DNA of 64,000 nt from an uncultured Methanosarcinaceae archaeon (GCA_963833425.1 CAWHXP010000005.1:1-64000), one strand, 5' to 3'. Counted from the stretch's first letter, positions 13,984 to 64,000 are shown. Notes: generated from the letters alone by a model not told the origin. Program-made: numbers and translations.

Positions 13984-14010
13984 TTTTAGCTGATGCATAG
14001 TATTTAGCTT

Positions 14011-14091: not shown

Positions 14092-14140
14092 GCCAAAATA
14101 AATGTATTAATTACCTGTTTTCTACAGATACCCTTTTAAG

Positions 14141-47061: not shown

Positions 47062-48198
47062 TTGAAAATGGATGTTTCAGAGAAAAAAAATCTTCAAGGA
47101 GCTAATCTTCAGGGAGCTGATCTTATAGAGGCTAACCTTCAAGAGGCTAACCTTGAAGGAGCTAACCTTGAAGAAGCTAACCTTCGAGGAGCTAACCTTG
47201 AAGAGGCTAACCTTCGAGGAGCTAATCTTTTTTATGCTGATCTCACAGAGGCTAACCTTCAAGGGGCTAACCTTATAGAAGCCAACATTGAAATGGCTAC
47301 ACTACAATTGGCTAAACTTCATTTAGCTAACTTTAAAGGAGCTGATCTTCAAGGAGCTAACCTTCAAGGGGCTGATCTTTATGGAGCTGATCTTCAAGGA
47401 GCTAACCTTCAGGGAGCTAACCTTTATGGAGCTGACCTTCAAGAAGCTAACCTTGGAGGAGCTAAACTTGAAGGAGCCAAACTTGGAGGTGTTAAACTTG
47501 AACGGGCTTACCTTATAGAAGCTAACCTTGAAGGAGCTAACCTTGAAGGGGCTAAACTTGGTGGAGCTAAACTTGAAAGGGCTAAACTTGAAAGAGCTTA
47601 CCTTATAGAAGCTAACCTTCAAGGAGCTGATCTTCAAGGAGCTAGCCTTCAGGAAGCTATCCTTTATGGAGCTGACCTTCAAGAAGCTAACCTTCGAGGA
47701 GCTAACCTTGAAGGAGCCAAACTTAGAGGAGTTAAACTTGAACGGGCTTACCTTATAGAGGCTAACCTTGAAGGAGCTAACCTTGAAGGAGCTAACCTTG
47801 AAGGAGCTAAACTTGGTGGAGCTAAACTTGGTAGAGCTAAACTTGAAAGGGCTAAACTTGAAAGGGCTTATCTTATAGAAGCTAACCTTGAAGGAGCTTA
47901 CCTTATAGAGGCTAACTTTCAATGGGCTAATCTTCAAGGGGCTAACCTTAAAGGGACTTACCTTTTAGGAGCTAACTTTAAAGAAGCTAATCTTGAAGGA
48001 GCTAACCTTGAAGGAGCTAATCTTGAAGGGGCTCATCTTGTAGGAACCAACCTTGAAGGAGCTGACCTTGAAGGAGCTAAGAATTTATCGCTTTTCCAAC
48101 TTTCTAAAGTGAAAACACTTTATAATACAAAACTAGATGAAGATCTTCTCATGCTATTAAAAGAAGAATATCCTGCACTTTTTGAAGAACCTGAATGA
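47062..48198 (+). CDS. Pentapeptide repeat protein
   Basis: More than 60 A(N/D/K/Y)Lxx units encoded by a 15-bp tandem repeat, with a C-terminal cap QLSKVKTLYNTKLD. Confidence 0.95.
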   Translation: MKMDVSEKKNLQGANLQGADLIEANLQEANLEGANLEEANLRGANLEEANLRGANLFYADLTEANLQGANLIEANIEMATLQLAKLHLANFKGADLQGANLQGADLYGADLQGANLQGANLYGADLQEANLGGAKLEGAKLGGVKLERAYLIEANLEGANLEGAKLGGAKLERAKLERAYLIEANLQGADLQGASLQEAILYGADLQEANLRGANLEGAKLRGVKLERAYLIEANLEGANLEGANLEGAKLGGAKLGRAKLERAKLERAYLIEANLEGAYLIEANFQWANLQGANLKGTYLLGANFKEANLEGANLEGANLEGAHLVGTNLEGADLEGAKNLSLFQLSKVKTLYNTKLDEDLLMLLKEEYPALFEEPE

Positions 48199-50070: not shown

Positions 50071-53000
50071 TTAGTCTGATTTCTCAAATGAAAAAAAATG
50101 CATTTTACCAAGAGAATCACCTGCAACAATAGACTCACCATTCGGTGAAATGCAGCAGGCTAGAAACGGACTATCCCCTGTAAAATTAGAGATGATTATC
50201 CCTTGTTCCAGATCCCATACCTTGAGTGTTTTATCGCTGGAAGCTGAAATTGCATACCTTCCATCACGTGTGATTGCAACCGCATTCACCCAATTATCAT
50301 GTCCCTTTAGTGTTGTTTTTTCTTCTCCCCTTTCCAAATTCCATATCTTGAGTGTTTTATCATCGGAAGCTGAAACTGCATACCTTCCATCACACGTGAT
50401 TGCAACTGCATTCACCCGATAATCGTGTCCCTTTAGTGTTGTTTTTTTCTCTTCTCTGTTCCGATCCCATATCTTGAGTGTTTTATCGTCGGAAGCTAAA
50501 ACTGCATATCTTCCATCATGCGTGATTGCAACTGCATTCATCTTAGAAGAATATCCCTTTAGTGTTGCTTTTTCTTCTCCCCTTTCCAGATTCCATACCT
50601 TGAGTGTTCTATCGTAGGAAACTGAAACTGCATACTTTCCATCAGGTGTGATTGCAACTCCACGCACCCGACCATCATGTCCCCTTAGCGTTGTTTTTTC
50701 CTCTCCCTTTTCCAGATCCCATACCTTGAGTGTTTTATCTCCGGAAGCTGAAATCGCATACTTTCCATCACGTGTGATTGCAACTGCATTCACCCAATCA
50801 TCATGTCCCTTTAGTGTTGTTTTTTCCTCTCCCCTTTCCAGATTCCATACCTTGAGTGTTTTATCGCTGGAAGCTGAAACTGCATACTTTCCGTCAGGTG
50901 TGATTGCAACTGCATTCACCCGATAATCATGTCCCTTTAGTGTTATTTTTTCCTCTTCCTTTTCCAGATCCCATACCTTGAGTGTTTTATCGCCGGAAGC
51001 TGAAACTGCACACCTTCCATCACGTGTGATTGCAACTGCATTCACCCGATAATCATGTCCCTTTAGTGTTGTTTTTTCCTTTCCCCTTTCCAAATTCCAT
51101 ACCTTGAGTGTTTTATCTCCGGAAGCTGAAATCGCATACTTTCCATCACGTGTGATTGCAACTGCATTCACCCAATCATCATGTCCCTTTAGTGTTGTTT
51201 TTTCCTCTCCCTTTTCCAGATCCCATACCTTGAGTGTTTTATCTCCGGAAGCTGAAATCGCATACTTTCCATCACGTGTGATTGCAACTGCATTCACCCA
51301 ATCATCATGTCCCTTTAGTGTTGTTTTTTCCTCTCCCTTTTCCAGATCCCATACCTTGAGTGTTTTATCTCCGGAAGCTGAAATCGCATACTTTCCATCA
51401 CGTGTGATTGCAACTGCATTCACCCAATCATCATGTCCCTTTAGTGTTGTTTTTTCCTCTCCCCTTTCCAGATTCCATACCTTGAGTGTTTTATCGCTGG
51501 AAGCTGAAATCGCATACTTTCCATCACGTGTGATTGCAACTGCATTCACCCAATCATCATGTCCCTTTAGTGTTGTTTTTTCCTCTCCCTTTTCCAGATC
51601 CCATACCTTGAGTGTTTTATCATCGGAAGCTGAAATCGCATACTTTCCATCACGTGTGATTGCAACTGCATTCACCCAATCATCATGTCCCTTTAGTGTT
51701 GTTTTTTCCTCTCCCATTTGCAAATTCCATATCTTGAGTGTTTTATCGCTGGAAGCTGAAATCGCATACTTTCCATCACGTGTGATTGCAACTGCATTCA
51801 CCCAATCATCATGTCCGTCAAGAGTTCTAATCAACGATCCTCCTGGTGATTTCAAGGAACAAGTTCTTGGAAGTAATCTGATACCATCTTGACATTCACA
51901 TGCTTGACCTAGTAATGTTTGTATCCCCTCTTCGTGAAAACTAAGGAGACGTCCTAGAAGTTGTCCTGCAAGCTGAGTTTCATTTTTTATTAAAGCATTA
52001 TATGAAAGTTTAATTGCACTTTGTACAAGCCTTATTTCAGTATCATCGAGTAGGTAATCGTAATCATGGATAAGAGAATTTATGTTAGGTATTTTGATAC
52101 CCGTTTTGTCATTTCTAACGGTCACATGCTCCAATTTGGTGTGCATCCATTCAAAGTTTAAAAGAAGCATATGAAGTTCTTCTTTTCTTCCAGCTTCTTT
52201 CATGTGGTATGCAAGATGCTCGAAGAAGTACCCATCATTAGGGCCCGTACTCCACTTATTTTTACAATCTTTAGGATATGCTTCTAGCAACTGATTGTGA
52301 AGGCTTGTTAAATCACGTGTTGTAGCTCTCAGGTAATCAAGTTGCAGGTCATGAAGAGATATAAAGCGATGAGGTGCTTCACCATCTAGTCGCAGAAGAG
52401 ACATCTCTTTCAATTTAGATATCAATTTCCCAGAATTGCGCTTTTTTAAATTTCCAGTATGTGCCCAAAAAATCGCAATTGTAGCTTCAGGTACAGGTTC
52501 ATCTGTAGGAAAAATCGCCAGTTCCTGATAACGCTTTACTGCATCTGAATCTTCACTTGAAAGAAAGTCGAGACTGACTTTAAATGCTTTCATCACATTG
52601 GAATTTGGATAGTTTGGCAATTGAGCTTCAATAAATTCAAGATCAGCTTCTTGTAAAGCCTCCAAAATATCTAACCATGATATTCCACTTTTAGCCATCG
52701 CTCCACACATGGATAGAGCGAGTGGCAGGTATCCACATTCCCTTGCCACTCCTTTTGCTTCCGATGGCAATAAGTTTACATCCTTATCATACCAATTTGC
52801 TAGAAGCTTCAAAGCTTCAAGTTCGCTGAATGTTTTAATCTTGTGTTCCTGAGCTCCAAGTGAGGTAACAACATTATTGTTTCTTGTGGTAATAAGCAGT
52901 TTACACATTTTACCTAAAGCATTAACAAAAGGCACTGCATCTTGAACTTTCCAAACGTCGTCAAGTATAATGAGGCATGTTTTATTAGAAAGTACCTTTG

Positions 53001-53973
53001 AAAGACTCGCTTCAGCTTCCTTTTGGCTGCTGTAATTTGCAGGATCATCGCCAAATTCTCTACCGACTAACTTCAAGCCCCCTATAAGATCAGGATTCTC
53101 TAAACCTACAGTAACCCAGAATATCCCATCATGAAAAGCGTCGCGAGCTTCTCTACTTTGGGCAAGGGCTGTGGATAATACGGATTTTCCCATTCCTCCC
53201 ATACCTTGAAGTGAGTTTATCTGCTTTGCAGATGTGATTGCTGCAGATTTTGTGAAATCAGCCAGCATCAACTCTTTTATTTTCTTAAGATCTTCTGTTC
53301 GAGATAAATAATGAGGAGGTAGTGTAGGTACTCCAACAATTGGAGCAAGATGCTCAGATAGAAACTCAAAAATACTGAGGTCAAATGAATGCTCTTTGCA
53401 AACATTTAATATCGAATCAATAGGACTAAAGCCACCTGACAATATGCCTGTAGCTGTCTCCTTATAAACAACTATTCCTACGATATCGTTTAGTTTAGCG
53501 TCGAAAACCGGAGTACCGCTAAATCCTCCTTCAATATTATACCCGATAAACTTAGAAACGTCAATCTGAACGAAGTCAGGATAAGCCCTCCCTCTCCCTA
53601 ATACTGAGACCCACTCTGCTTTATCTCCATATGGAAAACCGCATACTTTGAGTTCTCGATCCCAGAAATCATCTGTGAGCATAAGCTTTCCTATACTGGC
53701 ACATGAAGGAGCTTCATCTTCAAGCTTAAGAATAGCAAAGCCATATTCTGTGTTTTGCGACCAAAAGAAAATGTGAGATTTTAGAACTTTATTTGGCTCA
53801 TCAAGATAAAAAGTCAGATATATCTCATCGCCTATTTTAGCATTTGGCGAAACATCATTGACTACGTGCCTGCAAGTAAGTATCCACCTTTTCCCAATTA
53901 GAAATCCAGCACCTTGTGCGTCCCTGTTCTTATCTAGAACTTTGACTATTGAGGACTCTGGTAAATGATTCAT
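50071..53973 (-). CDS. Apaf-1-like NLR: trypsin-like protease, NB-ARC, helical domain, 14 WD40 repeats
   Basis: GAGFLIG..WILTCRHVV and GGFSGTPV (trypsin). GMGGMGKS, LIILDDVW, LLITTRN, CGYLPLAL and LHDLQLDYL (NB-ARC with MHD-like motif). Thirteen near-identical WD repeats plus one divergent. Confidence 0.95.
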   Translation of the reverse strand: MNHLPESSIVKVLDKNRDAQGAGFLIGKRWILTCRHVVNDVSPNAKIGDEIYLTFYLDEPNKVLKSHIFFWSQNTEYGFAILKLEDEAPSCASIGKLMLTDDFWDRELKVCGFPYGDKAEWVSVLGRGRAYPDFVQIDVSKFIGYNIEGGFSGTPVFDAKLNDIVGIVVYKETATGILSGGFSPIDSILNVCKEHSFDLSIFEFLSEHLAPIVGVPTLPPHYLSRTEDLKKIKELMLADFTKSAAITSAKQINSLQGMGGMGKSVLSTALAQSREARDAFHDGIFWVTVGLENPDLIGGLKLVGREFGDDPANYSSQKEAEASLSKVLSNKTCLIILDDVWKVQDAVPFVNALGKMCKLLITTRNNNVVTSLGAQEHKIKTFSELEALKLLANWYDKDVNLLPSEAKGVARECGYLPLALSMCGAMAKSGISWLDILEALQEADLEFIEAQLPNYPNSNVMKAFKVSLDFLSSEDSDAVKRYQELAIFPTDEPVPEATIAIFWAHTGNLKKRNSGKLISKLKEMSLLRLDGEAPHRFISLHDLQLDYLRATTRDLTSLHNQLLEAYPKDCKNKWSTGPNDGYFFEHLAYHMKEAGRKEELHMLLLNFEWMHTKLEHVTVRNDKTGIKIPNINSLIHDYDYLLDDTEIRLVQSAIKLSYNALIKNETQLAGQLLGRLLSFHEEGIQTLLGQACECQDGIRLLPRTCSLKSPGGSLIRTLDGHDDWVNAVAITRDGKYAISASSDKTLKIWNLQMGEEKTTLKGHDDWVNAVAITRDGKYAISASDDKTLKVWDLEKGEEKTTLKGHDDWVNAVAITRDGKYAISASSDKTLKVWNLERGEEKTTLKGHDDWVNAVAITRDGKYAISASGDKTLKVWDLEKGEEKTTLKGHDDWVNAVAITRDGKYAISASGDKTLKVWDLEKGEEKTTLKGHDDWVNAVAITRDGKYAISASGDKTLKVWNLERGKEKTTLKGHDYRVNAVAITRDGRCAVSASGDKTLKVWDLEKEEEKITLKGHDYRVNAVAITPDGKYAVSASSDKTLKVWNLERGEEKTTLKGHDDWVNAVAITRDGKYAISASGDKTLKVWDLEKGEEKTTLRGHDGRVRGVAITPDGKYAVSVSYDRTLKVWNLERGEEKATLKGYSSKMNAVAITHDGRYAVLASDDKTLKIWDRNREEKKTTLKGHDYRVNAVAITCDGRYAVSASDDKTLKIWNLERGEEKTTLKGHDNWVNAVAITRDGRYAISASSDKTLKVWDLEQGIIISNFTGDSPFLACCISPNGESIVAGDSLGKMHFFSFEKSD
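50205..51835 (-). repeat. 126-bp highly conserved tandem repeats encoding WD40 blades
   Basis: Thirteen units, several identical at nucleotide level (e.g. 51104-51480). Confidence 0.95.
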
Positions 53974-53982
53974 TCAAAAGCC

Positions 53983-54309
53983 TCATGCCGTTTTCCAAGA
54001 AAGAGTGACCTTAAAATTTGCCTCAACGCTTGTAGTTGCAATAAAGGCTCCAGCTTGCGCATTCATTATGATCCCAAACTCAACCCCTATACAATCAGGC
54101 TTACTGCTTAGACTCTTTAGTCTCTGTACAATAACGTCTGCAGCAGGCCTGATGACATCCAGAGCTTTTTCAAATTCTTTTGTTGCTTCTTCAGGCACTC
54201 CTGACGGTCTAGAAACAGGAGTCCGACCTCTTTCGGATTCTGTTTCCTCTACTTCAATTAAAACAGCTCCACCCTCTTCAAGGTTATATTTCACAAGTTT
54301 CTTAGTCAC
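53983..54309 (-). CDS. Trypsin-co-occurring domain protein Trypco1 (CU044_2847-like)
   Basis: GGAVLIEV...FEKALDVIRPAA...PD.I.VEFGI...A.AGAFIA....EANFKVTLSW. Lies 9 bp upstream of the trypsin-NLR gene. Confidence 0.88.
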   Translation of the reverse strand: MTKKLVKYNLEEGGAVLIEVEETESERGRTPVSRPSGVPEEATKEFEKALDVIRPAADVIVQRLKSLSSKPDCIGVEFGIIMNAQAGAFIATTSVEANFKVTLSWKTA

Positions 54310-55773
54310 TATGCTTTCCTCCTACAAAAAATTAGTAATGAAGATTCGATTCATATCGTCCACAATGTAAGTAATTTGCATATTGTTACTTTTAAATAAG
54401 TCACTTATTTTTGTTTTTTAGCCTATTTATAATAATTTCTTGAAATAAACTATTTTTTAAGAGTTAGGGTCTCTAAACATTTAAATTGCAGAAAATTTCA
54501 GATGAAGATTTGTGATAAAAAGGGCCTGTTAAAGATTTGGAGGACAAAGATTGGAAGAGGGGTAAAAACTGGAATTTAGAGTAAAAGACTTAAAAGCTCA
54601 GCATTCGGCGGCTCAGGTGACTCTAGCTCCTAACTGATATTATATCAGTTGGAACAGGCATAACTAAGAAACTTCAAACGGGGGAGGTAGAAAAATGAAT
54701 TGACATCTCGCCCATAACTTTAGTTTAGGAATTATGTGCTTGAAGTTTAAAATTAAAATTATTATATGGTGCAATTGACAAATTTTATTCAGACCGTTCA
54801 AGTTTTAATTCTATTGATTTCAGTTCAACCATTTAAGTCATAATTAAAAAATAGCAGGGAAAGATAAAATATATTGGCACCCCGCGCAATGAGAACTTGA
54901 AAATATAACAAACATGCATAGTAATTGATGATACAAATGCGGAATCTTATCAATCAAAAAGCTATAGAATCACCAGGAGCAAAGGAGCCTGGTTAATGTT
55001 TTGAACTTTTTCTATGCGTGCATCACCAAGATTTCATTAAGTTATTTATTAATCATGCGTACACAATCTCCTTTTTAGCTCAAATTTAATTGAATGGATC
55101 ACTATTTAATAGGTAATTATGTTCATTTAAGTTTGATATAACAAACAGTAACTAACGGAGTTATTGGGTATTTATTTGAAGCTTTTTCGCTAATTACAGT
55201 CTTTTTATGCGAATTAATCAATTTAATTCGACATTATTCAGCATTTTAATGAATAAATTGAATTAATTTTTGGGATTTATTTCCACTTTAATCTAAAATT
55301 GTTATTTATTTGATCATTATTTATGCCGAAATTATAGAGTTACAAGAGACTATTTAAGCTTCAAATCCTAAAAAAAACAAGTTTAATAGTAAGAATTATA
55401 GCTTAATTGTAGTAAGGAAAGGTAAATATTTATTGCGTAAGTTATTTACACCCAGTTTACCCATCACTAATTATCCACAGAGTAAAATTCTTTTGTGAGT
55501 TCGCCGTTTGATGTCCTATAATCATAGAGATATGGTCCGTAAGTTCTAATTGATTTTGTATTTCAAGATCATAATCAAGAGCACACTGCTTTAGGTATAG
55601 TTGCTCTAAAGTGTAATAATGATGCACAATATAGCCAATCTTCCCATATCAATTTTATGAAATTTTCAAACTTTAATATTTGTATCGGACATAGGGTTAT
55701 TTATCAATTTACAGAAAATGACACAAAAAGATTAAACACCTACTCATTAACTAAACTATAAAGAATCTTTTAA

Positions 55774-56142
55774 TTAAATAAATGATTCAGTGTGGCTATC
55801 TCTAATTCTAATCTTTTCTAAAATTTTCATTCTAATCTTTTCTGCTTCATTTTCAGTTATACATGGGATATTCTGCTCCACTACTCGAGATTGCCCTTCT
55901 GCAGATAAATACAGGAACTCTCGAGCATGTGAGCTTAAACTTCTCTGATCTTCAATAACAAGCCTATAAACTGGCCGACTGGTATATTGCACCTTAGGAT
56001 TAAAAAAATATTCAAAATGTGCGTGTAGATCCCCTTCCCGGTAAAGAGAGAACAGATTTTTGCAATCCCAAGGTAACTCCTTGCCTATTTTTTGCCTTGC
56101 TTCAAGAGCTTGTAATCTTTTTTTCATTGATACTGTTACCAT
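55774..56142 (-). CDS. Hypothetical protein (mobile-element-like)
   Basis: 122-aa ORF starting MKKRLQALEARQ, GTGAAG ribosome-binding site, co-oriented with neighbours. Confidence 0.55.
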   Translation of the reverse strand: MVTVSMKKRLQALEARQKIGKELPWDCKNLFSLYREGDLHAHFEYFFNPKVQYTSRPVYRLVIEDQRSLSSHAREFLYLSAEGQSRVVEQNIPCITENEAEKIRMKILEKIRIRDSHTESFI

Positions 56143-56299
56143 ATCTTCACTTCACATTTTCAATATTGTATTTTTCCCTAATCTGGCTATAATTCCATTA
56201 TACTTACCAGAATATTAATGGAATCTTGGCATAAATGGTAATTAAACTTCCATATTATACAGCATACGACTCTCCGATCGAGCTTCCAGAATAATAATT

Positions 56300-56611
56300 T
56301 CATTCTACTCTTGTAAATAACGGAGTGTCCGAAAGAGCATAACCATTCTGTGCCTGATAATTTTCCAGAGCTTCAAGTCTCTTCTGAAAATCACCAATAT
56401 CCAAATCTTTCATTATCGCATTTTGGACCTGTAAAGCCTGAATGAAAACTCTGATATAGGCCAGCTTTAAGCTATCTCCTTCCTGAACTCTGAAACGTTT
56501 TGCCTTCAATCTCTTTTGAAGCTGTTCAATTAATTCTGAATTTGCACTTAACAGTGACTCTCGTGTTAGTAATTTAAGAGTAGCTATTGGGGTACTAACA
56601 GTGTTCTTCAT
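56300..56611 (-). CDS. Hypothetical helical protein (mobile-element-like)
   Basis: 103-aa ORF ending in coiled-coil DFQKRLEALE. Confidence 0.6.
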   Translation of the reverse strand: MKNTVSTPIATLKLLTRESLLSANSELIEQLQKRLKAKRFRVQEGDSLKLAYIRVFIQALQVQNAIMKDLDIGDFQKRLEALENYQAQNGYALSDTPLFTRVE

Positions 56612-57354
56612 TAAATCCCTTTATAACGTTTTGTCGGTTAATTGTCAAGAATTTATAGTAATATATTGTATTTATAAATATATACATTTTAGTGCATGTA
56701 TCGTAAATAAATGTTATACTACTGTTTCATCTTCTAATCACATCTTTGATCTTCTGAATATACATTAATATGTAGACCTAAATTATAAAAACAAATTCTT
56801 ATAATTAGTCTAAAGTATAATTTTTAATGAGTTAATGATAAACTATTACTTATGCGATTTAAACTTCACCACTGGCTTCTAATGCATTCTTATGACACTT
56901 AATCATTTACAATCCCCCTTAGACACAAATTATGAAGTTTTGTAAAATTTCCCCAAAAATTATTATAGAAAATCCACTTATCATGCAATTTACCGGTTAG
57001 CTTACTATTTACGAAAATTATAAACTGAAACAGATAAGTAAGCTCTTGAATCTAAAAAGATCACTACTAAACTATTTATTAGTCCAAATTTTAATAATCC
57101 TAATGAAATCGCTTATACTTGAGTTTGTACTCTAAGTGAGTAAGTCATATTAAAGAAAAGTCAGTCTACACTTGCTGATATAGAAGATTGGGACTTGATA
57201 AGAGATTCGATCGGGCTAAAAGGAGTTACTTATAAAAATTGGTTTAAATATCTAATTACAGTTTCACACATTCTTCCGGTCAAATAGCAATAAATGCAAC
57301 CTAACACTTCGTCCCCCTGCAACAGTAATAGTATTATTTGGGGAACTCTCTTGC

Positions 57355-57696
57355 TTAGGAGTGCATTTTTAAGGTGGGGTATCCTTCATAACAGTTATTG
57401 CATAACACAGTCACAGTAGGACTTTTACCCTTTTGTCGGATCGTTTTTATCATTCCACATTTTTCTAACTCGTTCAATGCTGTCGGAAAAGCCCAATCAG
57501 GGATAGGTAAAAGGGAATTTATACCTTTCAAGGTGACTACTAAATTTGTAGATTTTTTAATACCTTTTAAGTGCCAAATGTACATAGCCACCCTATAAGT
57601 ATGCCCAACTGAATTTGAAGGTAGCTTCACAATCCATTCTAAAGGCAATTGGGGTATGAAGTATCCTTTTATTTTATCTCTAGAATTTACTAACAT
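57355..57696 (-). CDS. Small winged-helix DNA-binding protein, putative replication or regulatory protein
   Basis: LPLEWI...VAMYIWHL.GIKKS...ALNELEKCGMIKTIRQKGKSPTVTV, a wHTH recognition helix plus wing. Confidence 0.6.
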   Translation of the reverse strand: MLVNSRDKIKGYFIPQLPLEWIVKLPSNSVGHTYRVAMYIWHLKGIKKSTNLVVTLKGINSLLPIPDWAFPTALNELEKCGMIKTIRQKGKSPTVTVLCNNCYEGYPTLKMHS

Positions 57697-57795
57697 GATT
57701 TTACCCCATCTAATATTATTTCTAAATGATAAGAGTAAATAAATAAGAAATATAAAGAAATATAAGTAGTAAAAACATTATCCGAAGGCTTTAGA

Positions 57796-57881
57796 ATTTA
57801 GCTGTGTAGCTAATTAATTTTAGCTGTAGAGCGAAATATATTTTGCTGTGCAGCTAATTAATATTGCTCTGTAGCTAAATT
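57796..57881. repeat. Four phased palindromic repeats (iteron/operator-like)
   Basis: GCT-N4-AGC cores at 57801, 57823, 57845 and 57866 (spacing 22, 22, 21 bp), consensus TT(A/T)GCT-N4-AGCTAA. Confidence 0.8.
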
Positions 57882-59542
57882 CAAAGTGTAGACAAAACAG
57901 ATTATTGGAACTATTCTGCTTTCAGCTTCCTTCTTCTTTAATTTCTCCTAAAATCTCCATAATCAAATGCCACTTTTCTGCACCCTTCTCATCTATATAC
58001 CTATCAGGATAAAGATCGTATTAAAAATACCTTTGATAATTACATGAACAAGTTCAAACCTTATTTATCAAAAACCATTTGAAGCATCTAGAGCAAAAAA
58101 GCCCTGGTGGGGATTTTGGTGATGATAGCTACCTTAAGACGCTGAATATATCAATAGTGGATTTTTATTCTATTAAAATTTGATTGAGTTTAGAAAGTCA
58201 AGATTAACGAATTAATGACTCATTAGATTCTCGATTCACAGCAAACTTCGTTAGAATTTGTTGTCTTATTTCATTTATTTCTGCCATAAAGTCTTACAGA
58301 CTGAAGCCAGATATACTCAGGACTGTCTAATACCTTCAGGCAAAATATATTGCAAATCCAGGTTTATGAAACCGATCTCTGAACTCACAAATGAAATGTA
58401 CCTGGATTATGTAGGCTCATGATAATTAATAAAATGACATTTTTCCGCTTCAGGAAAGCTCTGGCTCAAATATGAACGAGTATAGGGCGATTCGAGGCAT
58501 TTTCTTGAGAAGTTAATTAAAACTATTAACTAGATGGAAAAAAACCCCATGATAGGGCTTAAAATAAGCCAGTTTTTGTCAATCCGTTAGCAAAACATGG
58601 GACAAAGTCAGCAATTTAGTCCAAACTAATCAAAAAGTAAATGAAATCTCATGTTGATTTAGAGAATCTGGAGAAGCCTGTTAGTCAACCATCACCTATT
58701 TGCTCTCGTAAACCCTAAGTAAGTCCAAGATATAGCTAATAATAATTTTTATTACTTTATTAATATAATAGGATATTGAACGCATTTAGTTTAAATTGTA
58801 TTAGATATACTTCTTTATCTGAAATAAAGATGATCCATTTATATAAAAACTAAACTATAACTCCAGATTAAAAAGTGGTTATTACAGATTTTTCATCCCT
58901 GTGACTACTAATCAGGTCCAAAATTAACATTTTATGCAACTATATTTCAAAAATTAAGATCAAACATAATCAAGGACCGTTATTTTCGGTTCGGTCAATG
59001 GGATGCGGTGACAAAAAACAAATTAGTTCATTACTTCCAGTTTTGGATAATAAGCCTAATAACAAAAATAAGTGGAGCGGAAGGATCAAAAACTTTATTT
59101 GCTCAATGTTGTGACAATACTTCTCATTGAATTTAGCTATTATCATAGACATCCCAATACCTTGCAGTAGACTTCGTACCTTTAAATCATAAATTTTAAT
59201 AAATGGTAGTAAAGTCTTCCTTATAAAAAATAAATATAATTTATAAAAATCAGATAAAATAAATATTGAATTTGTTCTATTGCCTGAAAATAAGGCAATC
59301 ACATAGTCAATAAAATATATTTTAAAGTTGTAAAATAAATTTTTGACTTTCTAAAATTTAGTATCTATTCAGATAAATTTATGTATTTACTTGATTATGT
59401 ACTCAAAATTCCAAAATGGAAATCTTTATTTTATTAGCTAGGGATATCTCATTTATCTTTTATCTCAAAATTTTGATCTTAGAGCTAAAATGGTGAACTG
59501 TTGTGATAAAACCCAACTTTTGTACCAGAAAGCCGGAGAAGT

Positions 59543-59900
59543 TTATTTATTCGAATTTTTTAATTCTTCAAGATTTCTCTCACAAAAATCAATTCGTCTA
59601 AGATCTTCAATTTTTCTATCCATTTTTATTGCCTGTTCATAATACTCAATTGCTTTTATTGTCTCTCCCAAATCTCTATACGCGTTTCCCAGATTACCAA
59701 GGTGAATTCCTTCTGCGTCCCTATTTCCAATTTCTTTAGCAATTTTGAGTGCTTGTTCATAATACCCAATTTCTTTTTTCGTCTCTCTCAGAGCACTGTA
59801 TGCATTCCCTAGATTTCAAAGTTGATTTCCTTCATTAAGTCTATCACCTATTTATCTTGCAATTTTTAGTGACTGTTCAAGATAATTTATTGCTTTCCTC
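59543..59900 (-). pseudogene. C-terminal TPR fragment of an NLR-type gene
   Basis: YYEQALKIAKEIGNRDAEGIHLGNLGNAYRDLGETIKAIEYYEQA...IDFCERNLEELKNSNK*. Confidence 0.8.
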
Positions 59901-60678
59901 CCTACTTATGCTGCTCGGAGTGTTTCTCATCTTTATGTTCTTCACCGGATTTTTTGCTGTCGTTTTGTTGCTCATCTGAGTGTTTCTTCTTAGGAGCCGT
60001 GTAAATACATCCAATTCCCAGAACAACGCGTCCAATCGCCAGTAATATTAAGATTATATAGTTTGGAAACTTTGTCTTCATATTATGCACCTATTTTTAT
60101 ATTTTATAATGCATTATTAATTTATAGATAATTGACTTATTGACTTATTATCTATAATGATTATAGCAAAATGCAAATATTATATAAATACTGCCTATAT
60201 ATACTATATATATTTATATATGAATAAAGTGTTTAGCAAAGGAAAAAATATAAATCCAATAACTCCAAAGATAATTTTACGCATGTAAATAATAAAATAA
60301 GATCTTTTTAATATAAGACTTATGAAGGCTCAACTGCAAAATCTCCTTTAAGTATTTATCGCGTAAATAATGAATAAAAAAGTTGGGAATGATTTTTTTC
60401 TTATTTGTAAGTGGAAAAAATCTGTCTCAGGATGAACTTTAAGAAAAAAATGTGCCAACCTATAGCTAAAAGCAGAATACAAGTTGATTGTCTCTTGATG
60501 ACGTCTGATGTCCTCACGGTTCTAATTTTGTCTTTTGATGCAATTGTAACCAGTGGTGAACAAAAACCCATTAATAATCAAAGTTTAGCTTCGGTAGTAA
60601 AAAGATGGGGGATGGAAGTAATGATCTTACTTAAGACTAACCTTTTCCTTTTTGTTCAGTCTAAGTTGTAATATGATC

Positions 60679-60826
60679 GGTTTTGTTGCAAAAATAATAT
60701 CTCTGCAGTTTACTCATTAATTTTTACCTTTATGTACTATTTTTCTCGGTTATGAGACTAATTAATTTTCAAATTGTGATAAACATATTGATTTTGTAAC
60801 AAAGCCAAATTTTTTGCACCAAAAAT
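60679..60826. mobile_element. Degenerate copy of the 149-bp MITE
   Basis: GGTTTTGTTGCAAAAATAAT start and AAAGCCAAATTTTTTGCACC end, similar length to 14141-14289. Confidence 0.6.
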
Positions 60827-60833
60827 CAGCAAG

Positions 60834-61070
60834 TTTATTTTTTCTAAATTTTTAATTTCTCAAGATTTCTCTCGCAAAAATCAATTAGTCGGGAATCTTC
60901 AATTTCTTTAGCAATTTTGAGTGCCAGTTTATAATATCCAATTGCTTTCTTTGTCCTTCCAAGATCATTGTATATTATTCCCAGATTTCCAAGGCATTTC
61001 CCTTCTCCTTTCTTACCCCCAATTTCTTTAGCAATTTTGAGTGACTGTTCATAATACTCAATTGCTTTTA
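60834..61070 (-). pseudogene. Second C-terminal TPR fragment, paralogous to 59543-59900
   Basis: KAIEYYEQSLKIAKEIGGKKGEGKCLGNLGIIYNDLGRTKKAIGYYKLALKIAKEIED...IDFCERNLEKLKNLEKNK. Confidence 0.8.
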
Positions 61071-61104
61071 TAAGATAGCATCATTATTTTGTAGGAGATA
61101 AACT

Positions 61105-61410
61105 ATGGAGAAAATTGGATTGGTAGAGACGATAGAAGCCTTGCGGTCAGAGTTATCTGCGGCGGTAAAGAAAGCCCAAGGACAAGAGATTCAGTTTCCG
61201 ATAGGTTCAGTACAACTGGAGTTCCAGGTAGGAGTGACATGGGACGCAGAGACTAAGGGTAAAGTCAAGTTCTGGGTATTGGAGTTAGGAGCGAGCGGCA
61301 AATATGCAAACGAATCGGTCCAGAAGGTCACTCTTAATCTTGAAGCCCCAGTGAACACTGAGGGAAATATAGTGAAAGTGACAGAACATTCGCGACAGAG
61401 ACCGAGTTAG
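61105..61410 (+). CDS. Trypsin-co-occurring domain protein Trypco2
   Basis: IGLVETIEALRSEL..A...IQF.IGSVQLEFQV...GKVKFWVLELGASG....VQKVTLNL. Directly upstream of a trypsin gene. Confidence 0.9.
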   Translation: MEKIGLVETIEALRSELSAAVKKAQGQEIQFPIGSVQLEFQVGVTWDAETKGKVKFWVLELGASGKYANESVQKVTLNLEAPVNTEGNIVKVTEHSRQRPS

Positions 61411-61422
61411 GGAGGGTAGATA

Positions 61423-62823
61423 GTGTTAGCAGGGCTGAACAGTCGAGCCGTTGAAGTTATCTATGAAGGGTGTGACGAAAACGGACATTTCTGGGAGGTA
61501 GGTTCTGGGTCCTTCGTTCGCCCTAATCTGGTGCTTACTGCCTCGCACTGTATTCCCGGCCCGGGCAAATTAAGAGTGCGTCTTCTCTACGACGGAAAAA
61601 AGTACCCTGCGACAGTGCGCCTGCAAGCTGACAAAGACAACGCAGATTTAGCAGTACTCGAAGTTTCTAATGTACCAGTGGAAGTCCCTGTTCTACGATT
61701 TGGAGAGGTAAATCGGAATATATCAGGGAAAGTGAAGGAATGTATAGCAATTGGCTTCCCCAGGTTCAAAGATATCGAAGATAAATCTAAGGTACTGCGT
61801 TGCAGTGCCCAAGTCGAGGGGGAGATCCCAACCGGAGAAAATTTTCGCCAGCCCATTCTTACGCTACAGATAACAAACAAGAATCCACGATCACTACCTG
61901 ATAACAAATCGGAATGGGCAGGGATATCTGGGGCAGTAGTATACTCGAGCAATGATACTATCATAGGTGTGATAACTGAGCATCATCTCCCGGAGGGTGA
62001 GAGTGCGTTAAACGTTGTGCCAATTACGGCCATCGATGGTCTAGATGAAGCGGGGAAATGGTGGCAGTTACTAGGTGTGAACCGTCAAGCACTCGTAAGT
62101 CTGCCGAAAATTATAGGCAATGTTACAGGCAAGCTAGCTACTGGGAAATATATCAATCAAATTGTGATAAAAGAGCCATCAGTAGAGGCATTAGTTAAAC
62201 AGATGGACTTTTTAGAACAAAAAGAAGAAAGTTTTGATTTATTTTTAAGCTATTTACACTTAGATGATGAGTTTGTTGACAAATTGTCCTGGTTGCTCGA
62301 AAATATTGCCTACTTAAGGGTATTGCATGACAGATGGATTATTTTGCCTGAAAAATGGCAGCAAGAAATACCTCGTGGATTCGAACTCACAAAATCTTGT
62401 GCAATATGTATCGGAGGGGAAACCCCCGAAGGTTGGTTTAGAGACGAGATTGAACTGGCTATCAGTCACCAAAGTGAAGATAAAGCATTCAGAGTTATTC
62501 CAGTGTTATTGCCCAATGCTCAAGAAATAAGTCTTGATGATTTCCCTGAGTTAAGAACTTTGGTGGACTTTAGGAATGGTTTGGAAGATACTAAAGAATT
62601 GCATCGTCTAGTTTCCGGGATACGCGGTGTGCCGCCAGGAAGAAAGCCTTCGGAAATTGTGATACAAGAACCTGATATTGAACCTGATATTAATAGAGCT
62701 CGTAAGCAATTAAGGATAATTGAACAACTGAGCTTTGAATTTAAGGCTATTTTCTCTCAAAAGCTAGTGGATGAGAGTGTTCGTAAGATAGTAAAAGTAA
62801 ATGTGTTAATGAAAAATAGGTGA
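61423..62823 (+). CDS. Trypsin-like serine protease fused to a TIR domain
   Basis: Intact triad: LVLTASHC, ADLAVL, WAGISGA. TIR motifs FDLFLSY, DRWIILP..W, WFRDEIE and VIPVLLP. Confidence 0.92.
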   Translation: MLAGLNSRAVEVIYEGCDENGHFWEVGSGSFVRPNLVLTASHCIPGPGKLRVRLLYDGKKYPATVRLQADKDNADLAVLEVSNVPVEVPVLRFGEVNRNISGKVKECIAIGFPRFKDIEDKSKVLRCSAQVEGEIPTGENFRQPILTLQITNKNPRSLPDNKSEWAGISGAVVYSSNDTIIGVITEHHLPEGESALNVVPITAIDGLDEAGKWWQLLGVNRQALVSLPKIIGNVTGKLATGKYINQIVIKEPSVEALVKQMDFLEQKEESFDLFLSYLHLDDEFVDKLSWLLENIAYLRVLHDRWIILPEKWQQEIPRGFELTKSCAICIGGETPEGWFRDEIELAISHQSEDKAFRVIPVLLPNAQEISLDDFPELRTLVDFRNGLEDTKELHRLVSGIRGVPPGRKPSEIVIQEPDIEPDINRARKQLRIIEQLSFEFKAIFSQKLVDESVRKIVKVNVLMKNR

Positions 62824-62827
62824 CTCA

Positions 62828-64000
62828 ATGGCAGACACCAAGTACAAGTATGATGTATTTCTGAGCTATTCAAGATCTGATGTGAATTCAGTTGAAAAAG
62901 TTGCGAGCTATCTCAGTGATGCAGGACTGAACGTCTGGTTTGATGAATGGTCACTGGTTCCAGGTCAGCAATGGGAGGCATCTTTAGAGGAAGCTTTTGA
63001 TAGTTCGCTTACAATCGCTGTTTTTGTAGGTCCTTCATCGTTAAGTAATCAGCAACAACTGGAGTTGAAAGAAGTCCTTAATAAGCAGATGAACGGTGCA
63101 GTTCATAGGGTCATACCTATCCTACTTCCTGGATCCAGTATAGATTTTATCCCTTTACCCCTTCGCAAAATATGCGCTTTAGACCTTCGTAAAGGTCTTG
63201 AGACAAAACGCGAGCTAAATGAACTTGTTAAAATGATTACCGAATATAAAACCGTAACCTATGGCACTGGACTAACAACAGGTCGCGATGTTTCCATAGG
63301 TGATGTTACCGGCCAGCTAGCTATTGGGAAATATATCAATCAAATTACTATAAAAGAGCCTTCTGGAAAGGCGTTAGTTGAATTAATAGCTTATCTGGAA
63401 CAAGAGAGAAATAAAGAAGAAAATCTTAAAATTTTAAACAGCTATAATCCTTCTGTCCTTCCTTATTTTGACCCTAGACTAAAAGAATTTGTTACCACAA
63501 ACAGAGTGGAAGAATTAAGCCAAGCTCTCGTATATCTTCAGGATCACAGGCTTTTACTTTTTACTGGATTAGGTGGAGTTGGAAAGACTACTCTTGCAAG
63601 AGCCATTATTGATATAAGACCAGCTAATGTACCTATTCCTTTCTGGTTTGATTTCAGTCAAAATCAGAGTGCCAAACTAGGGGATATTCTCGAAAAACTC
63701 GCAGCATATATGAATTCTCGAGATTTAGTAGGATTCAAAGAGGAAAAACGAGAGCCAGAAAAAAAGGATATTGATAAACTCATAGACAAATTAAATGTAG
63801 GAAACCCAGTATGGCTTATTTTCGACAACTTGGAAACTATAATGGATGACATTTATTTCCAAGATGAATATATAGATCTATTTTTTACTTGTTTGTTTAC
63901 CAACACTTACCAGATAAAGATCATTATAACGAGTAGAACTGTTCCAATGTTAAAAAATGAAGAATGCTTAATTAACGTAATAGAAGGAGATAAACAGAAT
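62828..64000 (+). CDS. TIR plus NB-ARC/STAND NTPase protein, partial (runs off the window; absent from the ORF track)
   Basis: Manual translation is open to the window end: MADTKYKYDVFLSYSRSD...VWFDEWSLVPGQQW...RVIPILLPG (TIR), GLGGVGKTTLA (Walker A), LIFDNLE (Walker B), IIITSR. Confidence 0.93.
   Translation, partial: MADTKYKYDVFLSYSRSDVNSVEKVASYLSDAGLNVWFDEWSLVPGQQWEASLEEAFDSSLTIAVFVGPSSLSNQQQLELKEVLNKQMNGAVHRVIPILLPGSSIDFIPLPLRKICALDLRKGLETKRELNELVKMITEYKTVTYGTGLTTGRDVSIGDVTGQLAIGKYINQITIKEPSGKALVELIAYLEQERNKEENLKILNSYNPSVLPYFDPRLKEFVTTNRVEELSQALVYLQDHRLLLFTGLGGVGKTTLARAIIDIRPANVPIPFWFDFSQNQSAKLGDILEKLAAYMNSRDLVGFKEEKREPEKKDIDKLIDKLNVGNPVWLIFDNLETIMDDIYFQDEYIDLFFTCLFTNTYQIKIIITSRTVPMLKNEECLINVIEGDKQN

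What the first reader, a model, noticed from the sequence alone, without database searches (positions are those of the whole stretch)
62113..63403. Adjacent effector and NLR share a duplicated 36-aa module with an amyloid-signalling (RHIM/BASS-like) appearance
Seen: 62113-62220 encodes IGNVTGKLATGKYINQIVIKEPSVEALVKQMDFLEQ, between trypsin and TIR. 63296-63403 encodes IGDVTGQLAIGKYINQITIKEPSGKALVELIAYLEQ, between TIR and NB-ARC, preceded by GTGLTTGRDVS. They are 25/36 identical with no gaps, far closer than the two TIR domains are to each other. Known: fungal and bacterial NLRs activate neighbouring effectors through short shared G/N/Q- and beta-branched-rich amyloid motifs (HET-s, RHIM, BASS) placed N-terminal to the NTPase. 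Inference: this is a homotypic, possibly prion-like coupling motif in an archaeon, unusually placed internally in both partners and followed by a conserved helix.
Basis: partly seen in the sequence, partly recalled or inferred. Interest (0 to 1): 0.9.

Follow-up and report, generated by a model that had tools for sequence, protein, structure and literature searches.

The report
Shared docking tag in archaeal NLRs
The stretch repeated in two neighbouring archaeal immune genes is the conserved N-terminal tag of a family of NLR-like sensors, which their small partner proteins also carry. It probably docks effectors onto the activated sensor, but the copy in the protease gene is a shortened, one-off recombinant.

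Summary
In detail: both peptides translate as written, are 25/36 identical with no gaps, and the two TIRs are only 32% identical. The module is not a private duplication. It is a conserved element in front of the NTPase of Methanosarcinales/ANME STAND(nSTAND6-like)-TPR proteins. It was found in 114 of 177 stored proteins: 78 at the N-terminus and 36 behind a fused N-domain. It has two parts. The first is a G/I/N/T/V/A/Q-rich beta-motif that AlphaFold leaves unmodelled. The second is the first confident helix of the NTPase arm. In 7 of 7 fetched loci the beta-motif also heads a small protein next to the NLR, modelled as four helices. It also heads other cargo, including one module-TIR protein. 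This fits a homotypic docking tag, like BASS motifs or EADs. ORF3 carries the full tag. ORF2 carries only the second half, has five residues rare in the family, and its architecture was found in no other protein. Whether ORF2's copy works or is a recombination relic is open, and the amyloid idea is untested. The operon starts with Trypco2 (Pepco), a pore-former activated by proteases.

The parts
61105..61410 (+). ORF1, 101 aa: Trypco2 (also called Pepco), first gene of the operon. It ends 12 nt before ORF2.
   Evidence: Pfam PF19631 Trypco2, E 1.5e-26, 92.9 bits, cut-off 24.2; ORF coordinates. The function (protease-activated beta-barrel pore) comes from the Evans et al. 2025 preprint, abstract and passages.
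61423..62823 (+). ORF2, 466 aa: trypsin-like protease, then half tag plus helix, then TIR, then a C-terminal tail. It is a chimeric, so far unique architecture.
   Evidence: The cluster of this protein has 1 member on 1 contig.
61501..61971 (+). ORF2 trypsin-like peptidase domain (aa 27-183). His42 and Asp75 columns are invariant and the Ser169 column nearly invariant among 18 aligned relatives.
   Evidence: Pfam Trypsin_2, E 8.7e-11; alignment A1; nearest relative P0005 at 76% identity over 49% of the query.
62113..62220 (+). ORF2 copy of the module (aa 231-266): second half of the beta-tag (62113-62175) plus an NLR-type helix (62176-62220). It lacks family positions 1-11.
   Evidence: Module HMM 54.8 bits over positions 12-48. 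Partner-motif HMM only 7.2 bits. Five of 37 columns carry residues rare in the family.
62242..62610 (+). ORF2 TIR domain (aa 274-396). It is followed by a C-terminal tail (62611-62820) that is homologous to the tail of the trypsin-TIR proteins P0007 and P0015.
   Evidence: Pfam TIR_2, E 1.6e-13; P0007 66% and P0015 60% identical over 44% of the query; alignment.
62828..64000 (+). ORF3 (at least 391 aa, cut by the window end): TIR, then full tag, then STAND NTPase. Relatives continue into TPR repeats.
   Evidence: It starts 4 nt after the ORF2 stop.
62855..63226 (+). ORF3 TIR domain (aa 10-133).
   Evidence: Pfam TIR_2, E 5e-22; aligns to the NAD+ hydrolase AbTIR, E 2.2e-6.
63263..63295 (+). 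First 11 positions of the family tag in ORF3 (GTGLTTGRDVS, aa 146-156). ORF2 has no counterpart.
   Evidence: Module HMM positions 1-11; partner-motif HMM 41.8 bits over aa 146-170.
63296..63403 (+). ORF3 copy of the module (aa 157-192): the rest of the beta-tag, then the start of helix 180-194.
   Evidence: Module HMM 92.9 bits. In the AlphaFold2 model aa 141-172 have pLDDT below 50 with no secondary structure, and helix 180-194 has pLDDT about 90.
63503..64000 (+). ORF3 STAND NTPase domain (aa 226-391; P-loop GLGGVGKT), truncated by the window end.
   Evidence: Pfam NB-ARC 28.1 bits, NPHP3_N 32 bits, nSTAND6 26.7 bits; up to 77-78% identity to nSTAND6+TPR proteins; pLDDT 87-96.

Best explanation
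The 36-aa module belongs to the conserved region in front of the NTPase of a family of Methanosarcinales/ANME NLR-like proteins (STAND/nSTAND6-like NTPase plus TPR). The region has two parts. The first is a roughly 30-aa glycine-punctuated beta-motif (GxGITAGGDVxIGDVSGQxAIGxYINQ) that has no structure on its own. The second is the first helix of the structured NTPase arm (PSGEALVKLIxYLDQKR). The beta-motif acts as a homotypic docking tag. The same tag heads small proteins (four helices in the model) and other cargo proteins encoded next to these NLRs. When the sensor oligomerises, its clustered tags capture the tagged proteins (inferred). ORF3 carries the full tag natively, behind a cis-fused TIR. 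ORF2 is a recombinant built from three sources: a trypsin domain of the kind normally fused directly to STAND sensors, an NLR-type module truncated at its 5' end, and a TIR plus tail taken from a trypsin-TIR family. The mechanism I commit to is that activated ORF3 recruits ORF2 through the half tag and/or TIR-TIR contacts. Clustering then switches on the protease, which cleaves the Trypco2/Pepco pore-former (ORF1), while the TIRs consume NAD+, and the cell dies or arrests. What is shown: the motif's distribution, its presence in neighbouring genes, its lack of predicted structure, and the chimeric make-up of ORF2. What is inferred: binding, recruitment, protease activation and the outcome.
For: The module is family-wide. 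A search with ORF3's module plus NTPase gave 152 relatives, and 114 of the 177 proteins then stored carry the module, 78 at the N-terminus and 36 internally. The tag is shared with neighbours. In 7 of 7 genome loci (6 contigs), a 135-150 aa ORF that abuts or lies near an NLR on the same strand starts with the beta-motif (E 1e-14 to 2e-8). These ORFs are homologous to each other along their whole length. The tag is modular. A profile of the beta-part found 74 proteins at E<=1e-3 among 1.84 billion. By my rough sorting these are 19 with the helical partner domain, about 15 with an NLR-type module (this group includes ORF2 itself, the module-TIR protein P0211 and three proteins with other cargo), 4 of a second NB-ARC/TPR clade, 10 with other cargo (Roc-COR, TPR, predicted transmembrane), 22 fragments under 100 aa and 4 unrelated repeat proteins. 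A model built only from the partners' motif scores N-terminally tagged NLRs at a median of 35.9 bits (n=77) and ORF3 at 41.8. Most NLRs with a fused helical N-domain score about -3 (27 scored of 38), and the other TIR-fused NLR, P0127, scores -3.4. So ORF3 keeps a partner-grade tag even though it has a cis TIR. In AlphaFold2 the tag is unmodelled (pLDDT about 30) both in ORF3 (65-sequence alignment) and in the partner (22 sequences), next to confident domains. This is what a segment that folds only on binding would look like. The three genes are 12 and 4 nt apart. Trypco2/Pepco is a pore-former activated by a trypsin-like protease that is normally fused to the STAND sensor (Evans 2025 preprint). 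Here the protease sits on a separate protein, so some form of coupling to the sensor is needed. ORF2's copy keeps the near-invariant G, A and G and the YINQ core.
Against: ORF2's copy lacks tag positions 1-11 and scores 7.2 bits on the partner-motif model. It has 5 residues rare in the family in 37 columns, including Q to K at a column that is 84% Q and L to Q at a column that is 75% L. The family median is 1, and only 13 of 133 members have 5 or more. Its architecture occurs in 1 of 56 proteins found (itself), and the homologous trypsin-TIR proteins P0007 and P0015 lack the module. Stand-alone module-TIR proteins are rare: a single cluster of 2 members. Adjacent copies are no more alike than non-adjacent ones (mean identity 0.60 against 0.60; 345 of 720 permutations reach the observed value), and ORF2's copy is no closer to ORF3's than to other NLR copies. 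The module also persists where the effector is already fused in cis (36 of 114), so recruiting partners in trans cannot be its only role. ORF3's true tagged partner may lie downstream, outside the window, as it does in L002. No binding prediction or experiment was obtained.
Confidence: 0.45

Rival explanations
1. Recombination relic. ORF3's tag is functional but serves another partner, possibly one encoded beyond the window end, or serves the NLR itself. ORF2's copy is a passenger left by the domain shuffling that joined a trypsin domain to a TIR effector, with the breakpoint inside or beside an NLR module. Any coupling between ORF2 and ORF3 then runs through TIR-TIR contacts or a TIR-made nucleotide, or ORF2 acts independently.
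For: The ORF2 architecture is unique (1 of 56). Its three parts have different nearest relatives: trypsin to P0005 (76%), module to NLR-type copies (P0180, 28/37), and TIR plus tail to P0007 (66%). The copy starts at family position 12, directly after the end of the trypsin domain, at the same junction as in the fused trypsin-NLR P0016. Its helix part belongs to the NTPase arm in NLRs and has no NTPase to pack against in ORF2. It carries 5 rare residues and scores 7.2 bits on the partner model. NLR debris (TPR C-terminal fragments at 59546-59815 and 60847-61080, minus strand) lies just upstream, which shows that the locus has been rearranged.
Against: The near-invariant positions are kept. Identical residues share codons more often than expected (19/25 against 9.4 expected), and only 11 of 36 codons differ at the protein level. 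A second, independent module-then-TIR protein exists (P0211, whose TIR is only 28% identical to ORF2's). A protease cut off from its sensor needs some form of coupling.
Confidence: 0.35
2. Amyloid or prion-like signalling. The beta-motif forms a beta-arch amyloid fold on the oligomerised NLR and templates the same fold in tagged effectors, as in HET-s/NWD2, BASS or Bab/Agp.
For: The composition matches the reported bias of BASS motifs (enriched in G, N, Q, V, I; depleted in K, P, L) (Dyrka 2020 section 9). Short hydrophobic runs are broken by conserved glycines, as described for the AlphaFold model of BASS11 (Ibarlosa 2024 preprint, section 4). The motif occurs on NLR N-termini and on adjacent helical-bundle proteins in tight collinear gene pairs. 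It is unstructured in monomer models. Dyrka 2020 reports two unclassified Methanosarcinales Bell/NLR motif pairs.
Against: There is no fibril, seeding or amyloid-propensity result of any kind. Pfam's RHIM or HET-s type models give no hit, and the PDB sequences give none. The partners carry the motif at the N-terminus, not the C-terminus. The motif is kept between cis-fused effectors and the NTPase, whereas Dyrka 2020 (section 9) describes all-in-one architectures as having the effector attached directly to the NOD. ORF2 has only half of the motif.
Confidence: 0.2
3. NLR-intrinsic element. The segment is mainly a linker, an autoinhibitory piece or a ring-forming piece of the NLR itself. The tagged small proteins would then be regulators (competitive inhibitors or chaperones) rather than recruited effectors, and ORF2's copy would interfere with ORF3 or tune it.
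For: The module is present in every architecture, including cis-fused ones (36 of 114). Its helix is part of the structured NTPase arm. The tag is generic rather than pair-specific.
Against: NLRs with a fused helical N-domain replace the partner-type motif with an N-rich variant (median -3.3 bits). That argues the canonical motif goes together with having trans partners. The tag also heads enzymatic and membrane cargo, which fits delivery of effectors better than regulation.
Confidence: 0.12

Closest known systems
Amyloid signalling motifs of NLR/effector gene pairs (fungal HET-s/HRAM, PP/RHIM; bacterial BASS1-11: Dyrka et al. 2020 preprint, Ibarlosa et al. 2024 preprint)
   Same: Both are short motifs rich in G/N/Q/I/V and poor in K/P/L. 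Both sit at the N-terminus of NB-ARC/TPR-type NLRs and on a small helical-bundle protein encoded by an abutting collinear gene. Both are also attached to TIR and other immune cargo and are unstructured in the monomer.
   Different: The partners carry the tag at their N-terminus, not the C-terminus. The tag is kept between cis-fused effectors and the NTPase. It is followed by a helix that belongs to the NTPase arm. Pfam's RHIM or HET-s type models give no match. Adjacent copies show no special similarity. Nothing here shows amyloid formation. The BASS profile HMMs were not available.
Effector-associated domains (EAD1-10; the Pfam numbering up to EAD11 is my recollection) of NTP-dependent conflict systems (Kaur, Burroughs, Iyer, Aravind 2020, eLife; passages read)
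   Same: The logic is the same: one copy on the core NTPase, further copies on effector proteins often encoded by the adjacent gene, and a proposed homotypic interaction. The paper places such systems mostly in multicellular prokaryotes; the relatives found here are from Methanosarcinales and ANME archaea.
   Different: EADs are described as small folded domains, mostly alpha-helical. Here the shared part is about 27-30 aa for which AlphaFold predicts no fold. ORF2 and ORF3 hit no EAD model in Pfam at E<=1. EAD copies in adjacent genes are reported to be closest to each other, which is not the case here.
Pepco (Trypco1/2) plus trypsin-like protease plus Avs/STAND defence modules (Evans et al. 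2025 preprint; abstract and passages)
   Same: A Trypco2 gene lies directly upstream of a trypsin-like protease with conserved triad columns, in an operon with a STAND NTPase. A canonical all-in-one example lies in the same window: Trypco1 at 53983-54309 plus Trypsin-NB-ARC-WD40 at 50071-53973.
   Different: Here the protease is not fused to the sensor. It sits on its own protein with a half tag and a TIR, and the sensor carries a second TIR plus the full tag. No such split form was found among the 56 trypsin relatives.

Membership tests
BASS / fungal amyloid signalling motifs | The same short motif on an NLR and on the product of an adjacent (mostly collinear, abutting) gene | tested here: met
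   In 7 of 7 loci a small ORF with the motif lies next to an NLR with the motif. For example, in L002 the NLR is at 2475-4874 and the partner at 4874-5323. In the window ORF2 and ORF3 are 4 nt apart.
BASS / fungal amyloid signalling motifs | Motif at the N-terminus of the NLR and the C-terminus of the effector | tested here: not met
   In the window the motif is internal in both proteins. In the family it is N-terminal in 78 of 114 NLR-family copies, but the partners carry it at their own N-terminus (aa about 9-50).
BASS / fungal amyloid signalling motifs | Composition enriched in G, N, Q, V, I and depleted in K, P, L | tested here: met
   Beta-part over 191 aligned copies: G 16.5%, I 14.7%, N 8.3%, V 7.5%, Q 7.1%; K 3.3%, L 2.8%, P 0.2%. 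The criterion comes from Dyrka 2020 section 9.
BASS / fungal amyloid signalling motifs | Match to a described motif profile (RHIM, HET-s, BASS1-11) | tested here: inconclusive
   Neither the two 36-aa peptides nor the whole proteins hit any Pfam model over this stretch at E<=1. That Pfam holds RHIM and HET-s type models is my recollection. The BASS1-11 HMMs, ASMscan and ArchCandy were not available.
BASS / fungal amyloid signalling motifs | Forms amyloid fibrils and templates (cross-seeds) the partner's motif | not testable with these tools
   No experiment was possible. Monomer AlphaFold2 models leave the motif unmodelled.
Effector-associated domains (EADs, Kaur et al. 2020) | A small non-enzymatic module with one copy on the core NTPase and further copies on effectors, often in the adjacent gene | tested here: met
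   NLRs, small helical partners, and TIR, Roc-COR, TPR and predicted transmembrane cargo all carry it.
Effector-associated domains (EADs, Kaur et al. 2020) | [quoted passage not shown] | tested here: not met
   Six NLR/partner pairs: adjacent 0.60, non-adjacent 0.60, and 345 of 720 permutations reach the observed value. ORF2's copy is 25/37 identical to ORF3's, tied with five others, and one other copy is closer.
Effector-associated domains (EADs, Kaur et al. 2020) | Sequence membership in a described EAD family | tested here: not met
   ORF2, ORF3 and the two peptides hit no EAD model in Pfam at E<=1. That Pfam contains EAD models is my recollection.
Pepco/Trypco-protease-STAND defence module | A Trypco gene directly next to a trypsin-like protease with an intact catalytic triad | tested here: met
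   Trypco2 E 1.5e-26 and Trypsin_2 E 8.7e-11. His42 and Asp75 columns are invariant and Ser169 nearly invariant. The gap between the genes is 12 nt.
Pepco/Trypco-protease-STAND defence module | Protease fused to the sensor (STAND or other) in one polypeptide | tested here: not met
   ORF2 ends after its TIR and tail, and the NTPase is in ORF3. Fused forms are the rule among the relatives (P0005, P0006, P0008, P0012, P0016 and others).
STAND (nSTAND6-like) NTPase + TPR NLR family of Methanosarcinales | P-loop STAND NTPase of this clade followed by TPR repeats | tested here: inconclusive
   The NTPase criterion is met: NB-ARC 28.1 bits above its cut-off, nSTAND6 26.7 against a 27.7 cut-off, and up to 77-78% identity to nSTAND6+TPR proteins. 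The TPR part would lie beyond base 64000 and cannot be seen.

The most novel reading that the evidence does not exclude
The tag is an archaeal amyloid-type signalling motif with an unusual geometry, sitting at the N-terminus of both sensor and executioner. On the oligomerised NLR it folds into a beta-arch seed that templates the same fold in small helical-bundle executioners and in enzyme cargo. In this locus a half motif is enough to pull a protease-TIR protein into the seed, which links amyloid signalling to proteolytic activation of a Pepco pore. That would be the first defined amyloid-signalling family in Archaea and the first link between amyloid signalling and protease-gated pore formers.
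Probability: 0.2. Interest if true: 0.8.

Novelty: new variant of a known kind. Interest (0 to 1): 0.55.

Why it matters
Coupling NLRs to their effectors through short shared motifs (amyloid signalling motifs) or small adaptor domains (EADs, Death-fold) is a theme that links prokaryotic defence to eukaryotic innate immunity. In Archaea it has only been touched on: Dyrka et al. 2020 mention two unclassified Methanosarcinales pairs. This finding gives a concrete, testable archaeal case with four elements. There is a sharply conserved tag of about 30 aa on two NLR clades. There is a dedicated small partner protein, modelled as four helices, that matches a PADLOC candidate defence model (PDC-M14B). 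There is a set of other tagged cargo proteins. And there is one natural recombinant in which a Pepco-activating protease has been separated from its sensor and carries half a tag. If the tag docks effectors, it explains how these archaeal NLRs without effector domains signal, and it offers a portable recruitment handle. If it is amyloid-like, it extends prion-type signalling to the third domain of life. If ORF2's copy is only a relic, the locus still shows how defence genes are rebuilt at module borders.

Tried and rejected
1. Complex prediction of ORF3 aa 143-205 with ORF2 aa 217-272 was never run. The tool was then declared unavailable.
2. The first genome scan, using a 17-sequence module alignment, failed because no stretch was conserved enough. 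The window's own genome was not among them.
3. Chance or low-complexity similarity is rejected (E 8e-13; family-wide conservation).
4. A private recent duplication or gene conversion between ORF2 and ORF3 is not supported. Other family members are equally close or closer, and the copy of another MAG is as similar to ORF3's at DNA level. The excess of shared codons points only to shared ancestry within one subfamily.
5. Pair-specific co-variation of adjacent copies was tested and was negative.
6. The fold of the small partner gave 0 PDB matches at E<=0.001, only generic four-helix bundles. The Atlas gave only unnamed clusters, with TCAD2 at 0.90 as a weak lead. The Atlas gave no usable hit for the module. 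The module profile against PDB sequences gave 3 chance hits at E 0.39-0.64.
7. A search for more module-TIR proteins (P0211 residues 1-60) found only P0211's own cluster (2 members) and one NLR fragment among 6 candidates.
Their identity stays untested. The earlier whole-protein scan listed only the 25 best families, nearly all TPR repeat or NTPase models and none for the N-terminal domain.
9. Literature searches on nSTAND6 and PDC-M14 found nothing. A search on the motif strings GQVAIG, GITAGG and SGQVAIGE found 3 unrelated papers. I saw no description of this tag, but Table S2 of Dyrka 2020 (the two Methanosarcinales pairs) and the source data of Kaur 2020 were not seen and may bear on novelty.


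Full report
OBSERVATION
They are 25/36 identical without gaps. In a BLASTP comparison of the two whole proteins the stretch forms its own local hit (30/50 identical, E 8e-13), while the TIR domains align at 43/134 (32%). Pfam confirms the setting. ORF2 (61423-62823, 466 aa) is Trypsin_2 (aa 27-183), module (aa 231-266), TIR_2 (aa 274-396) and a tail. ORF3 (62828 to the window end, at least 391 aa) is TIR_2 (aa 10-133), module (aa 157-192) and a STAND NTPase (NB-ARC and NPHP3_N above their cut-offs, nSTAND6 at 26.7 against 27.7). A 101-aa Trypco2 gene (61105-61410) precedes them. The three genes are 12 and 4 nt apart on the same strand.

THE MODULE IS FAMILY-WIDE
A search with ORF3's module plus NTPase gave 152 relatives, with the best 120 listed. 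These are STAND (nSTAND6) + TPR proteins. The named ones come from Methanosarcina, Methanolobus, ANME-2 and other Euryarchaeota or Halobacteriota MAGs, at 50-78% identity. Of the 177 proteins then stored, 114 contain the module. In 78 it starts within the first 45 residues. In 36 it is internal: about 30 lie behind a helical domain of about 120 aa, 3 behind another helical domain, 1 behind a TIR (P0127) and 2 behind trypsin (ORF2 itself and P0016, a trypsin-module-NTPase-TPR protein from an Ignavibacteriales MAG). The consensus is GxGITAGGDVsIGDvsGQlAIGeYINQFkIekPSGEaLvKLidYLdQKR. Internal placement is therefore common in this family.

TWO PARTS
AlphaFold2 of ORF3 aa 1-390 with a 65-sequence alignment gives pLDDT below 50 and no secondary structure for aa 141-172, which is the beta-part. 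A helix at aa 180-194 has pLDDT about 90 and runs on into the confidently modelled NTPase (87-96). So the second half of the '36-aa module' is the first helix of the NLR's structured arm. The first half is strongly conserved (G162, A165 and G167 are near-invariant) yet has no structure on its own.

THE BETA-PART IS SHARED WITH NEIGHBOURING GENES
A scan of one genome per species returned only 7 loci on 6 contigs, from Methanosarcinales MAGs, Methanoperedens, ANME-1 and ANME-2. In all 7, an ORF of about 135-150 aa on the same strand starts with the beta-motif (E 1e-14 to 2e-8). It mostly abuts or overlaps an NLR gene; in L003 it lies 2.5 kb away. In L002 the NLR is at 2475-4874 and the partner at 4874-5323. 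These small proteins align along their whole length. AlphaFold2 models them as an unmodelled N-terminal 45 residues followed by four helices with pLDDT 81-92. No PDB match reached significance (0 at E<=0.001) and no Pfam family matched. However, 4 of 5 of these proteins scanned hit the PADLOC candidate model PDC-M14B (E 5e-9 to 6e-6).

A 36-position profile of the beta-part found 74 proteins at E<=1e-3 among 1.84 billion representatives, 16 of them at E<=1e-10. My rough sorting of these is as follows.
- 19 have the partner's helical domain. Some carry an extra N-terminal domain, and one (P0219) has HEAT repeats in front.
- About 15 have an NLR-type module. These are NLRs or NLR fragments, ORF2 itself, P0211 and three proteins with other cargo.
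- 4 belong to a second NB-ARC/TPR clade.
- 10 carry other cargo: P0234 has Roc COR-A/COR-B plus a hydrophobic tail, two have TPRs, and P0242 has a predicted transmembrane region.
- 22 are fragments under 100 aa.
- 4 are unrelated repeat proteins.

P0211 (270 aa) is module then TIR_2, the same order as the C-terminal half of ORF2. Its TIR is only 28% identical to ORF2's.

WHICH NLRs KEEP A PARTNER-GRADE TAG
An HMM built only from the 27-aa motif of 22 partner proteins was scored against the NLR family.
- N-terminally tagged NLRs: median 35.9 bits (n=77).
- Second helical N-domain type: 38.9 bits (n=3).
- NLRs with the common fused helical N-domain: median -3.3 bits (27 scored of 38). These carry an N-rich variant instead.
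- P0127, the other TIR-fused NLR: -3.4 bits.
- ORF3: 41.8 bits.
- ORF2: 7.2 bits.
- P0016: 6.7 bits.

ORF3 therefore keeps a full tag of partner type although a TIR is fused in cis. ORF2 has only the second half.

WHAT ORF2'S COPY IS
It is of NLR type: 10-19 of 25 positions match the NLR copies, against 7-11 of 25 for the partner copies. It begins at family position 12, directly after the end of the trypsin domain (..QALVSLPK|IIGNVTG), at the same junction as in P0016. It ends where the TIR unit of the trypsin-TIR proteins P0007 and P0015 begins (KEES[F/Y]DLFLSY), and those proteins lack the module. The nearest relatives differ by segment: trypsin to P0005 (76%), module to P0180 (28/37), and TIR plus tail to P0007 (66%). 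None of the other 55 relatives has ORF2's architecture, and its cluster has one member. The copy has 5 residues that are rare in the family in 37 columns, against a family median of 1 (13 of 133 members have 5 or more), but it keeps the near-invariant G, A, G and YINQ. It is no closer to ORF3's copy than to other family members. The excess of shared codons (19/25 against 9.4 expected) shows common DNA ancestry within a subfamily, but ORF3's copy is equally similar to that of another MAG (85/108). Two TPR C-terminal remnants lie on the opposite strand just upstream (59546-59815 and 60847-61080), showing that NLR genes have been broken up here. ORF2 is best read as a recent, one-off recombinant.

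MECHANISM
According to the Evans et al. [quoted passage not shown] It is activated when an associated trypsin-like protease, typically fused to an Avs/STAND sensor, removes its C-terminal tail. The window itself holds a canonical case: Trypco1 (53983-54309) plus Trypsin-NB-ARC-APAF1_C-WD40 (50071-53973), both on the minus strand. In the locus under study the protease is detached from the sensor.

My preferred reading has four steps, all inferred. The TPR sensor of ORF3 binds a trigger. The NTPase oligomerises and clusters TIRs and tags. ORF2 is captured through its half tag and/or its TIR. The clustered protease then cleaves Trypco2 while the TIRs hydrolyse NAD+. ORF3's TIR aligns to the NADase AbTIR with a Glu at the aligned ..ELx.. 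position. That this is the catalytic Glu is my recollection.

At the family level I put docking by the tag at about 0.7. For ORF2's half tag specifically I put it at about 0.4-0.45, against about 0.35 for a relic. An amyloid mechanism is possible but untested (about 0.2).

EVIDENCE AGAINST DOCKING
- Adjacent NLR/partner copies are no more alike than non-adjacent ones (0.60 against 0.60; 345 of 720 permutations reach the observed value).
- The module persists in architectures with the effector fused in cis (36 of 114).
- No binding test could be run.
- ORF3's real partner may lie beyond the window end.

COMPARISON WITH KNOWN SYSTEMS
The tag works like BASS and fungal amyloid signalling motifs and like EADs. 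Membership in either is not established.
- No Pfam model matches it, and the BASS HMMs were not at hand.
- The partner carries the tag at the N-terminus rather than the C-terminus.
- EADs are described as folded domains whose adjacent copies are each other's closest relatives (Kaur 2020, passages). Neither holds here.
- Dyrka et al. 2020 (abstract, passages, sections 7 and 9) report Bell domains and NLRs in Methanosarcinales and two unclassified Bell C-terminus/NLR N-terminus pairs in Table S2, which I could not see. This tag may overlap with those pairs.

Searches for nSTAND6 and PDC-M14 found nothing, and the motif strings found only unrelated papers. I rate the finding a new variant of a known kind.

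LIMITS
- ORF3 is truncated by the window end.

Noticed in passing
window 50071-54309, minus strand: This is a second, canonical protease-gated system. Trypco1 (53983-54309, PF19493, E 1.1e-25) lies directly upstream of a 1300-aa Trypsin_2-NB-ARC-APAF1_C-WD40 protein (50071-53973). Its WD40 repeats are nearly identical to one another (GHDDWVNAVAITRDGKYAISASxDKTLKVW...).
   Followed up: partly
window 59546-59815 and 60847-61080, minus strand: Two short open frames encode C-terminal TPR repeats of NLR type (..KAIEYYEQALKIAKEIG..DFCERNLE..) with no upstream NTPase. They look like debris of broken NLR genes and lie just upstream of the Trypco2 operon.
   Followed up: partly
window 14488-15303 and 15245-15979, plus strand: A class I tRNA synthetase (W/Y type, PF00579) is split over two overlapping ORFs that cover profile positions 4-176 and 168-291. 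This could be a frameshift, a sequencing error or a pseudogene.
   Followed up: no
window 22742-25828, minus strand: A 1028-aa protein has a very strong TPR_12/NPHP3-type TPR array, but Pfam recognises no domain in its first 500 residues (only Imm12 at E 7e-4). It may be another sensor with an unknown N-terminal module.
   Followed up: partly
window 47062-48198, plus strand: A 378-aa pentapeptide-repeat protein (PF00805, E 5e-113) lies between the housekeeping genes and the NLR region.
   Followed up: no
window 6500-14400, 33800-41500 and 54300-61100: These are long stretches without any ORF of 150 aa or more. The last one holds only small unannotated ORFs and the TPR remnants.
   Followed up: no
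L004 3672-10231: This locus holds a tandem array in one Methanoperedens contig: tagged small partner, tagged nSTAND6-type NLR, tagged NLR of a second NB-ARC/TPR clade, a second tagged small partner, and the start of a further NLR with a weaker tag.
   Followed up: partly
P0204, P0203, P0209 and L002 4901-5320 (small partner proteins): The helical partner domain matches the C-terminal part (positions about 152-263 of 267) of the PADLOC candidate defence model PDC-M14B (E 5e-9 to 6e-6). I found no paper that mentions that name.
   Followed up: partly
P0059 (closest listed full-length relative of ORF3's NTPase, 77% identity): This 1069-aa protein has the tag at its N-terminus and a C-terminal ThsA-like/SIR2-type region (PADLOC ThsA1, E 1.5e-18, aa 767-1016). 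So some family members carry an effector-like domain at the C-terminus as well.
   Followed up: no
P0130, P0135, P0144 and about 30 other NLRs (N-terminal 120 aa): Many Methanosarcina NLRs of this family start with a helical domain (MDPAALAQ..ILVPALP..). It has a hydrophobic first helix and an acidic residue at position 2, the features Dyrka 2020 gives for Bell domains. It is followed by an N-rich variant of the module. Whether it is a Bell domain was not tested.
   Followed up: no
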